Source: Oikopleura dioica (taxonomy: Eukaryota > Animalia > Chordata). From it: a stretch of DNA of 64,000 nucleotides. Positions 36,501 to 37,884 of the stretch are shown piece by piece (position 1 is the stretch's first letter; every line of letters begins with the position of its first letter). Both the position numbers and the translations under genes were made by a program. The stretch lies in contig OU015569.1 of assembly GCA_907165135.1 (NCBI GenBank), positions 12,895,146-12,959,145 on the forward strand, read 5' to 3'. The notes beneath the pieces are model-generated. The model did no database searches. It saw nothing but the letters and a program-made list of their open reading frames with translations, and was not told the DNA's origin.

Positions 36501-37884
36501 AACCCCATTTTGTGTAGAAACTGGTGTAAAAAGCAGTCATCATTTTCAAGACCCTTATTGGCGTACATATGGAGATAAAATCGACGTTGACTTTGAGAAA
36601 ATTCGGGCAAAAATAGAACAAGAAAAGCAAAAAAGAATGATCAAATTCGATAATCCACGTTTCAAAGAATATGATTTAGGCGATAAAGTTCTTATCAAAA
36701 ATTTCCGCGAAAAATTCCCTCCGTTTTTAGGTCCTTATGAAGTAACGTTTAAATCCCCGAGTGGTCTTTGGTACACTGTTAAAAATGATAAGGGCGAATT
36801 AAGGCGGCATGCAGAGCATATAAAAATCTATTCTCAGCGAAATTCAATTACAGAGACGAATACTGATGTTGAAAAATACCCCAAGATTGTGACAAAACCA
36901 CAAGAAAATGATCTCGAGCTTTTTGAAATGTTTTCTGAAAACTGTCTTTTTTCGAAGGATTCCCTTGGTCGATTTGATGAAAATTTCTCTACAGGAAAAG
37001 AATCGGAAAAAGCGCATGAACCTTTATCCTCTGAAATGTCAGATCAGTCATTACAATCGGAACCTTATCGGGAGCGGTCTAGTTCTTCTTCAGAACAAGA
37101 AAATTTATCATCCTCATCGACTCTTTTGATAGAAATGCCATTACCGAAAATTTATCGTAATCAAGAATCTGATTTGAATCAAGTAGGAAATGGATCAAAC
37201 ATTGTGCTGGATTCCGAGAAATCAAGTTCTGATTCTGAGTTTTCTGTTAATTTGACATCGTATGATAAATTGCCCGAAATTGATCCGCTAGTTGCTCTTA
37301 AACGTAGAAGGGAAAGATCTGATGATTCCGTTGTCGAGCGTAAAATTGCAAAATTTACAGTCGAAAATAATTTGGAAAACATGTCAATTCTTATTAAAAT
37401 GGAAAATCATGATCTTGACTTTTTTGAACACCTTAATGATAAATGGAAAAATACAGACGACATAGAGGAAACTTATGTTGAGAATGGTATATTTATCAAA
37501 CTAAACGAATTAACAAGAGACTCACTTTTATTCATCCTTTTTAAAATGAATCAGGACTTTGATCTCGAGGAATCAAGGGCGAAACTTCAGATAAAAGTGA
37601 AGGAAACTATTCGTAGAGAGTATCCGAATTGGCGTAAATCGAGAAACGGACAACTTCTTTTTTTTGCGGTCTTTAGAGTGCAAAAAGAGCGAACGTTGTA
37701 CGAACTAACTGTCCCCGAGCTAAAGACTGTTTGCGCTTTTTATGATTTATCCTGTAAATTTAAAAACTGTTCAAAGACAATCTTACAGGCATCTATCGAA
37801 ACAGAATTGCTGAAAAAATTTCCAAATCATCCGATGCGAAAAAATGTTCTTGTTTTTCTTCCAGACTTTGAAACTGAAATATGA
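33510..37884 (+). CDS. pol: Element 2 Pol polyprotein (protease, RT, RNase H, integrase, C-terminal extension), with one frameshift at the A7 run 35842-35848
   Basis: VDSGS, AYLDD, ETDAS/EKE/TDN/SD, HHCC, YFDLIG/LDNAKEH/GQVENVNRTIK. Removing one A restores QKRFCVPEAL, matching element 1 DKFCVPEVL. Confidence 0.96.

What the first reader, a model, noticed from the sequence alone, without database searches (positions are those of the whole stretch)
37441..37884. Integrase C-terminal extension ends in two tandem SAP/HeH-like helical modules (candidate targeting domain)
Seen: after the integrase core both Pol proteins carry a long acidic linker and then a shared ~150-aa region. Element 2: LNELTRDSLLFIL..SRAKLQIKV (37501-37611) and LYELTVPELKTVCAFYDL..SKTILQASI (37696-37797). 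Element 1: MSELPKETLISIL..NKSELGNKV (11769-11656) and LPQFSLYELKCLCSFYSL.. (11574-11468). They are joined by NWxKSxxGxLLF. The LxxLxxxELxxxC..L....K..L pattern resembles SAP/Rho-N/LEM helix-extended-helix folds, and SAP domains bind AT-rich DNA. No chromodomain is recognisable. Inference: this region could tether the intasome to the AT-rich satellite.
Basis: partly seen in the sequence, partly recalled or inferred. Interest (0 to 1): 0.85.

Follow-up and report, generated by a model that had tools for sequence, protein, structure and literature searches.

The report
Integrase with a twin SAP-like tail
Two distantly related jumping genes sit at exactly the same base of a satellite repeat, and their integrase enzymes end in a shared doubled domain, predicted to fold like the small SAP/LEM helix pairs, that likely helps steer them to such repeats.

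Summary
The domain is real. Two Ty3/gypsy LTR retrotransposons (10134-18535, minus; 31138-39128, plus) carry, behind the integrase core and a variable acidic linker, a conserved ~170-aa terminal domain (33% identical, E 2e-17). It recurs in 28 of 1.84 billion representative proteins, and every long one is a Ty3/gypsy Pol. It is a true duplication of a ~65-aa unit (profile-profile 98%). A confident model (pLDDT 90, pTM 0.85) gives each unit a helix-extended-helix core matching SAP, LEM, Rho-N and EndoVII modules at about 2 A, but at weak Z (5-6.5). It is not a canonical SAP: the loop glycine is missing and Pfam scores stay under cut-off. Corrections: element 1's second unit is broken by a frameshift, and satellite B is no more AT-rich than its surroundings. 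New support for targeting: both elements, in opposite orientation, occupy the same base of the ~169-bp unit (TSD GTCAT, about 1 in 169 by chance). Against strict specificity: four more junctions in public runs lie at other offsets of the unit. Binding and targeting were not tested. Verdict: a new integrase tail domain in a known kind of element; tethering is likely but unproven.

The parts
37369..37884 (+). Element 2 integrase C-terminal domain, 171 aa plus stop: cap (37369-37485), unit 1, unit 2; ends Pol
37489..37680 (+). Unit 1 (residues 41-104): strand, helix-extended-helix core (37492-37629), W/K-bearing loop and strand
37681..37869 (+). Unit 2 (residues 105-167): helix-extended-helix core (37687-37827) with a lysine invariant in 26 of 26 rows (37774-37776), then loop and strand
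36841..37368 (+). Acidic, serine-rich, poorly conserved linker (~175 aa); disorder inferred from composition, not modelled
35848..36840 (+). Element 2 integrase: HHCC finger, catalytic core with D(33)E spacing, GPY/F motif
33351..35900 (+). Element 2 protease-RT-RNase H frame, separated from the integrase frame by a break near 35830-35900
31138..32327 (+). Element 2 5' LTR (TGATA...TATCA); TSD GTCAT at 31133-31137
37934..39128 (+). Element 2 3' LTR; TSD GTCAT at 39129-39133; no substitutions against the 5' LTR; 49 bp after the pol stop, so no env gene
11327..11895 (-). Element 1 C-terminal domain: cap from 11895, unit 1 11778-11595, unit 2 from 11586, frameshifted near 11520
11383..16140 (-). 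Element 1 pol frame, 1585 aa (protease, RT, RNase H, integrase, linker, tail)
16089..17345 (-). Element 1 gag frame with CCHC knuckles
10134..11326 (-). Element 1 3' LTR; TSD GTCAT (plus strand) at 10129-10133
17331..18535 (-). Element 1 5' LTR; TSD GTCAT (plus strand) at 18536-18540
6410..40514 (.). Satellite B array (163-171-bp units, about 105 units, 35% G+C) holding both elements at the same base of the unit, just after an A-run/T-run tract

Best explanation
This is a conserved, doubled ~65-aa module at the very end of the integrase of a clade of Ty3/gypsy retrotransposons, predicted to fold as two SAP/LEM-like helix pairs on a small sheet, which likely binds DNA at the end of a flexible linker and so would tether integration to satellite arrays. 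Shown: the domain, its duplication, its terminal position behind a 190-415-aa variable acidic spacer, its co-inheritance with the integrase core, and two recent insertions of different families at the same base of satellite B. Predicted: one compact domain with two helix-extended-helix faces; unit 2 keeps an invariant lysine at the start of its second helix and both units together are net basic. Inferred: the several copies of the tail on an integrase multimer would bind A/T-tract DNA cooperatively, as the SAF-A SAP domain is reported to, concentrating the integration complex on the array; the exact base would then be chosen by the catalytic core and local DNA shape (the site follows an A-run/T-run tract inside a near-palindrome), which gives a hot spot rather than a single site.
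For: Position and architecture match known targeting tails (CRM CR motif, PMC3059260 passages; Tal1, PMC11735389 passages; Ty1 disordered tail, PMC8487063 abstract). Repeats are better conserved than the linker in 11 of 11 pairs (e.g. 53 v 28%, 75 v 38%, 26 v 18%). Domain tree broadly follows the core tree (26 rows). Model pLDDT 90.3, pTM 0.85; unit 1 alone 82.3. Helix-pair matches at rmsd 1.6-2.2 A over 41-45 residues. K136 in 26 of 26 rows, K119 K/R in 89%, K90 K/R in 96%; repeats net +2 to +10 in 15 of 15 proteins tabulated. Same TSD and same base for two elements whose integrase cores are 48% identical and whose LTRs do not align; about 1 in 169 by chance (noticed after the fact). Four further LTR-start junctions of element 2's family, and one LTR-end junction within 3 bases of the window's site, join satellite B in 3 of 4 runs laid. 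SAF-A SAP binds the minor groove of A-tracts by mass binding (PMC9399289 passages).
Against: No structural match is significant: Foldseek best E 0.61-0.65, Z at most 5.3 for the whole model and 6.5 for unit 1, under the tool's warning level of 8. The same lists hold modules that bind proteins or dimerise (LEM-BAF, MANF/CDNF-BiP, SAP30-Sin3, EndoVII) and phage baseplate proteins. The SAP loop glycine, part of the DNA-binding face in SDE2, is absent, and unit 1 lacks a fixed lysine at the equivalent place (K/R 13 of 27). Satellite B is not unusually AT-rich, and both elements lying in B has a chance of about 14% (17.7 of 47.6 kb). The four extra junctions lie at four other offsets with unrelated flanks (TGAAT, TCTTC, ATTTT, AACCC), each rests on one contig per run with 22-29 letters on the short side, and the lay could list only junctions to satellite B as joints. 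Insertion sites of homologues are unknown (L001 runs LTR to LTR, L002 stops inside the domain). Homologues were collected through the domain, so relatives lacking it were not examined.
Confidence: 0.42

Rival explanations
1. The tail has a general role in the element's life cycle (holding the cDNA or genomic RNA, stabilising or multimerising the integration complex) and does not choose targets. The shared site comes from the catalytic core's liking for a bendable near-palindromic spot, and copies pile up in the satellite because they are tolerated there.
For: Best structural neighbours include Rho-N (Z 4.8 and 6.3) and the EndoVII C-terminal module (Z 5.3 and 6.3); Rho_N is the best Pfam hint (4 of 29 rows, best E 7.4e-4). 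The domain is kept across families whose cores are only 34-59% identical to element 2's, while satellites usually turn over fast (established knowledge), so a sequence-specific satellite reader is hard to keep. The site sits in a near-palindrome. All scorable integrases share an unusual D(33)E spacing that could itself shape site choice.
Against: A long variable acidic spacer ahead of a folded terminal domain is the layout of targeting tails in other elements. Two divergent cores picking the same base is more easily explained if both are first brought to the array.
Confidence: 0.33
2. The tail is a targeting tether that works through a protein, not DNA: a LEM-like surface that binds BAF or another chromatin protein, or centromere-type nucleosomes on the ~170-bp repeat.
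For: Emerin LEM is among the profile's best PDB sequence hints (E about 1) and structural matches (Z 5.7, rmsd 3.0 over 45; Z 5.5, rmsd 1.7 over 40). Several offsets within one array suit a chromatin-level tether. Tal1 targets CENH3 chromatin through its integrase C-terminus (PMC11735389). BAF's role in retroviral integration complexes is recalled, not checked.
Against: The LEM matches are tied with SAP and Rho-N and are not significant. Whether satellite B is centromeric is unknown; it lies 23 kb from a terminal TTAGG-type array. Conserved exposed-looking positions are mostly lysines, as for nucleic-acid binders.
Confidence: 0.22
3. The region is an unconstrained read-through tail and the helical resemblance is chance.
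For: Single-sequence Pfam and atlas scores are weak (SAP E 0.13; atlas 0.85-0.86); element 1's copy is frameshifted.
Against: 28 homologues down to E 1e-50, clear duplication, conservation above the linker in 11 of 11 pairs, confident model.
Confidence: 0.03

Closest known systems
Chromoviruses and CRM centromeric retrotransposons (Ty3/gypsy with chromodomain or CR motif; PMC3059260, passages)
   Same: Ty3/gypsy domain order, GPY/F motif, a putative targeting domain at the integrase C-terminus, residence in satellite arrays, TGAT...ATCA-type LTR ends
   Different: No chromodomain; the terminal domain is a doubled helix-extended-helix unit behind a 190-415-aa acidic spacer; CR-motif similarity was not tested
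Tal1 of Arabidopsis lyrata (Ty1/copia; PMC11735389, passages)
   Same: Integration into a nucleosome-sized tandem repeat; specificity there maps to the integrase C-terminal region
   Different: Other superfamily; targeting shown by experiment there, only inferred here; no such doubled domain named in the passages read
Ty1 integrase (PMC8487063, abstract; PMC7459421 and PMC10050235, search listing)
   Same: Catalytic half followed by a long disordered C-terminal part whose tip tethers the complex
   Different: Ty1 uses a 16-residue segment that binds Pol III; here the tip is a folded 170-aa domain
SAP / LEM / Rho-N / EndoVII helix-extended-helix modules
   Same: Two near-parallel helices joined by an extended loop, rmsd about 2 A over 41-45 residues; conserved lysine at the start of helix 2 in unit 2
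   Different: No loop glycine; each helix pair is followed by a conserved loop and strand, and two units plus a cap are predicted to form one domain; at most 58 of 171 residues align to any listed chain
SAP domains in other transposons: Zisupton DNA transposons and a Physarum Chlamys Penelope-like element (PMC8557442, passage)
   Same: A SAP-type module recruited into a mobile-element protein as a putative DNA binder
   Different: Those are not LTR elements, and the passage describes a single SAP inside the RT, not a doubled tail on an integrase
Tor elements of Oikopleura dioica (PMC4402516, passages)
   Same: Ty3/gypsy elements of a marine animal with near-identical LTRs and 4-5-bp TSDs
   Different: No env here; relationship not testable without Tor sequences; the window's terminal repeat is mostly TTAGG (46 v 7 TTAGGG) whereas TTAGGG is published for O. 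dioica (PMC8008620, passage)

Membership tests
Ty3/gypsy LTR retrotransposon | Paired LTRs with TG...CA ends and a 4-5-bp target duplication | tested here: met
   LTRs of about 1.19 kb, TGATA...TATCA, TSD GTCAT for both
Ty3/gypsy LTR retrotransposon | Pol order protease-RT-RNase H-integrase | tested here: met
   RVT_1, RT_RNaseH, Integrase_H2C2, rve in that order; protease only a weak hit (E 0.22)
Chromovirus | Chromodomain at the integrase C-terminus | tested here: not met
   Searches (7 proteins, E<=1; 29 proteins, E<=0.1): no chromo family listed; model is helix pairs, not a chromo barrel
CRM group A | CR motif at the integrase C-terminus | not tested
   no CR-motif profile on hand
SAP domain (PF02037) | Two amphipathic helices joined by an extended loop, about 35 residues | tested here: met
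   SAP chains 2do1, 1zrj, 2do5, 1h1j align at Z 3.7-5.7; prediction only, weak Z
SAP domain (PF02037) | Invariant glycine in the loop shortly before helix 2 (PMC9399289 passage) | tested here: not met
   Gly not among the five commonest residues at positions 134-135 (26 rows); 5 of 27 at the unit-1 position 68; loop alignment is gappy
SAP domain (PF02037) | Pfam gathering score 23.9 bits | tested here: not met
   12.1-14.3 bits where scores are shown; 4 of 29 rows hit at all, best E 0.0033
SAP domain (PF02037) | DNA binding | not testable with these tools
   needs a binding assay
Helix-extended-helix superfamily (SAP, LEM, Rho-N, EndoVII; grouping recalled) | Structural superposition of the helix pair | tested here: inconclusive
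   such modules recur at the top of five searches at rmsd about 2 A, but Z<=6.5 and Foldseek E>=0.15; 9 of 29 rows give weak Rho_N, SAP or SAP_new25 hits
LEM domain | Binding to BAF | not testable with these tools
   no BAF sequence could be handed to the complex predictor
Oikopleura Tor elements | Pol groups with Tor1-4 | not testable with these tools
   no named relatives: 10 of 10 clusters looked up hold only unnamed ENA, JGI or Logan proteins

The most novel reading that the evidence does not exclude
A marine-animal clade of Ty3/gypsy elements has evolved a third kind of integrase targeting domain, beside the chromodomain and the CR motif: a tandem helix-extended-helix reader that binds A-tract satellite DNA directly and places unrelated families at the same phase of a nucleosome-sized, possibly centromeric repeat.
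Probability: 0.3. Interest if true: 0.85.

Novelty: new variant of a known kind. Interest (0 to 1): 0.6.

Why it matters
How retrotransposons find satellite and centromeric arrays is open: the Tal1 paper calls the mechanism incomplete in any organism (PMC11735389, passage), and a 325-genome survey reports many convergent invasions, naming only Tal1 and an HIV-1 variant as integrase-level examples in the passages read (10.64898/2026.09.17.752431). Here is a discrete, folded, 170-aa candidate with an intact reading frame, a named candidate target and invariant lysines, so a direct-binding model can be tested with ordinary protein assays. Even without targeting it is a conserved integrase domain that no Pfam family covers and that eight literature searches did not find described.

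Tried and rejected
Whole genome: none held, so no genome-wide count of insertions. Homologue search with element 1's tail at near lengths: 0 of 569 candidates. Viral contigs: nothing with the 3-row alignment (185 stretches, none confirmed) or the integrase core; the 29-row alignment gave no usable pattern. PDB by sequence: best single-sequence hit a homing endonuclease fusion, E 0.015, not supported by the profile; rejected. Atlas: best 0.85-0.86, leads only. Homodimer prediction: no answer, score 0.00, alignment not used; no evidence either way. No whole-domain structural match was listed, which does not show that the fold is new. No RNA holder listed; expression not examined. Element 1's junctions in public runs, and whether its frameshift is real or an assembly error, were not examined. 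Junctions to non-satellite DNA would be loose ends, of which 24 were shown and 219 were not; none shown lay at the LTR start, so exclusivity is open. A first alignment for unit 1 held a non-homologous row (P0046); I dropped it and two long rows (P0018, P0027) before folding. Element 1's row was left out after residue 127, and P0017 and P0018 were left out of the 29-row alignment. 'AT-rich satellite' rejected as a distinguishing feature. Host not identified; O. dioica considered and left open. Earlier findings: none by place or sequence, one loose one by words.

Full report
Setting. The window is eukaryotic repeat DNA: a 216-bp satellite (1-5809), satellite B of 163-171-bp units (6410-40514), a 57-bp GC-rich satellite (40700-63718) and a terminal array of 46 TTAGG and 7 TTAGGG units. 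Two LTR retrotransposons interrupt satellite B: element 1 (10134-18535, minus) and element 2 (31138-39128, plus). Both have the Ty3/gypsy order of Pol domains and no room for env. Within each element the LTRs show no substitution over about 1190 aligned bases and differ only by a few gaps, so both are recent, and some frame breaks may be assembly errors (not tested).

Observation. The quoted peptides and coordinates are right for element 2 and for element 1's first module. The tails align at 33% over 131 aa (E 2e-17), the integrase cores at 48%, and the linkers not at all. Element 1's second module leaves the frame near 11520; the rest of the unit is matched in another frame (E 1.2e-9). No chromodomain was found.

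A protein family. One homologue came from the word-indexed search, 28 from a profile search of 1.84 billion representatives and 8, five of them new, from a second profile search. Of the 28, the 8 of 995 aa or more all carry RNase H and integrase families (7 also RT); two mid-sized fragments carry an integrase remnant and the rest are fragments without a significant other family. In 26 of 26 long proteins held, the domain and the integrase core occur together, and the two trees agree in their main groups; these proteins were collected through the domain, so this shows only that it was not seen on other kinds of protein. The spacer from core end to unit 1 is 192-415 aa with net charge -18 to -50, while the two units are net +2 to +10 (15 proteins). 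The units are better conserved than the linker in 11 of 11 pairs. All 10 clusters looked up hold only unnamed ENA, JGI or Logan proteins.

Anatomy. The halves of the 29-row alignment are homologous: hhalign 98%, E 2.6e-13; the unit-1 profile finds unit 2 at E<=0.01 in 26 of 27 rows and no reversed control. The unit is about 65 aa: short strand, helix, extended loop, helix, a conserved Pro/aromatic-or-His/basic loop and a strand. AlphaFold gives pLDDT 90.3 and pTM 0.85 for the whole 171 aa, which points to one compact domain with a 40-aa cap rather than two beads; cap plus unit 1 alone gives 82.3. Foldseek finds nothing at E<=0.001; its low-rmsd rows are MANF, CDNF, Ku70, Hcc-1 SAP and emerin modules, and in the viral library Rho-N and SAP proteins recur. 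VIA-align against 48,161 chains gives, for the whole model, EndoVII (Z 5.3, rmsd 2.0, 45 aligned), Rho-N (4.8, 2.0, 45) and CDNF (4.8, 1.9, 42), mostly on unit 2; for unit 1, HSV-1 origin-binding protein (6.5, 1.9, 45), Rho-N (6.3, 1.8, 45), a TFIID chain (6.3, 1.6, 41), EndoVII (6.3, 2.2, 45), Hcc-1 SAP (5.7, 3.4, 51) and emerin LEM (5.7, 3.0, 45), with phage baseplate chains in the same range. All are under the tool's caution level of Z 8, so the helix-extended-helix fold is consistent across searches but homology is not proven. Pfam gives weak Rho_N, SAP or SAP_new25 hits in 9 of 29 rows, none at cut-off where scores are shown. K136 is invariant in 26 of 26 rows; K119 and K90 are basic in 89% and 96%. 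The SAP loop glycine (PMC9399289, passages) is missing.

Target sites. Both elements are flanked by GTCAT and sit at the same base of the satellite unit, in opposite orientation, just after an A-run/T-run tract and within a near-palindrome. Their LTRs do not align, so these are independent events. With about 105 units of mean 169 bp the chance of the same offset is about 0.6% (noticed after the fact); both lying in satellite B is unremarkable by itself (about 14%). Laying four DNA runs on element 2's 5' LTR and flank showed four more joints that end exactly at the LTR start, at other offsets of the unit (one in two runs, three in one run each; single contigs, 22-29 letters on the short side), and one LTR-end joint within 3 bases of the window's site. 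The five bases before those four sites share no consensus with GTCAT. This suggests an array-level preference with a hot spot, but the lay could show only satellite-B junctions as joints, so dispersal elsewhere is not excluded. Element 1's junctions were not examined. Satellite B is 35% G+C, like its neighbours, so any DNA reading would have to rest on the A/T tract.

Mechanism. Most likely (0.42) the tail is a DNA-binding tether; next (0.33) a general nucleic-acid or multimerisation aid with no targeting role; then (0.22) a tether through BAF or chromatin proteins. Domain, duplication, linker and shared site are shown; the fold is predicted; binding and targeting are inferred from position, charge and analogy.

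Literature. Read as passages: PMC3059260 (CR motif and chromodomains as putative targeting domains), PMC11735389 (Tal1), 10.64898/2026.09.17.752431 (centromere atlas), PMC8557442 (SAP in Zisupton and a Chlamys element), PMC9399289 (SAP features), PMC4402516 (Tor), PMC8008620 (O. dioica telomere); abstract and outline: PMC8487063; search listing only: PMC7459421, PMC10050235, PMC2527525. Searches listed no paper that, by title, abstract or the passages read, describes a SAP or helix-extended-helix domain in an LTR-retrotransposon integrase; the library lacks most subscription papers and repeat databases, and no supplements were read, so an earlier mention (for instance in Tor annotations) is possible.

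Verdict. A real, conserved and apparently undescribed integrase tail domain in an ordinary class of element, with a suggestive but unproven link to satellite targeting. New variant of a known kind; interest 0.6.

Noticed in passing
window 10129-10133, 18536-18540, 31133-31137, 39129-39133: Two different element families share the same TSD (GTCAT) and the same base of the satellite-B unit, in opposite orientation.
   Followed up: partly
window 36277-36381 (+) and element 1 Pol residues 988-1022: The integrase has 33 residues between the second Asp and the Glu instead of the usual 35 (usual value recalled): 20 of 26 proteins by motif, 3 more by eye, 3 not matched by the pattern.
   Followed up: partly
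window 37904-37933 (+), 11327-11356 (-), L001 5924-5953: No purine tract abuts the 3' LTR in any of the three elements; a small conserved GACC-initiated hairpin (-6 to -9 kcal/mol) lies there instead, and a purine-rich stretch lies 25-55 bases upstream in element 2.
   Followed up: partly
window about 33900-34170 (+); P0023 210-307: A dUTPase-like segment appears to lie between protease and RT (Pfam dUTPase E 0.066 in P0023 only; motif likeness in the window judged by eye).
   Followed up: no
window 32328-32345 (+) and 17330-17313 (-): The gag frame starts at or right after the end of the 5' LTR, overlapping the TGG-initiated putative primer site; the same in L001. Primer tRNA not identified.
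   Followed up: no
window 63721-63998: Terminal array mixes 46 TTAGG with 7 TTAGGG units; could be a real mixed telomere or an under-called G run.
   Followed up: no
window 6076-6403: A 17-bp minisatellite with an inverted block separates the 216-bp satellite from satellite B.
   Followed up: no
window 27043-28103: Irregular stretch of satellite B with 219-, 201-, 48- and 245-bp spacings.
   Followed up: no
L002 4674-4877: This metagenomic relative breaks off inside unit 1 and continues in short tandem repeats.
   Followed up: no
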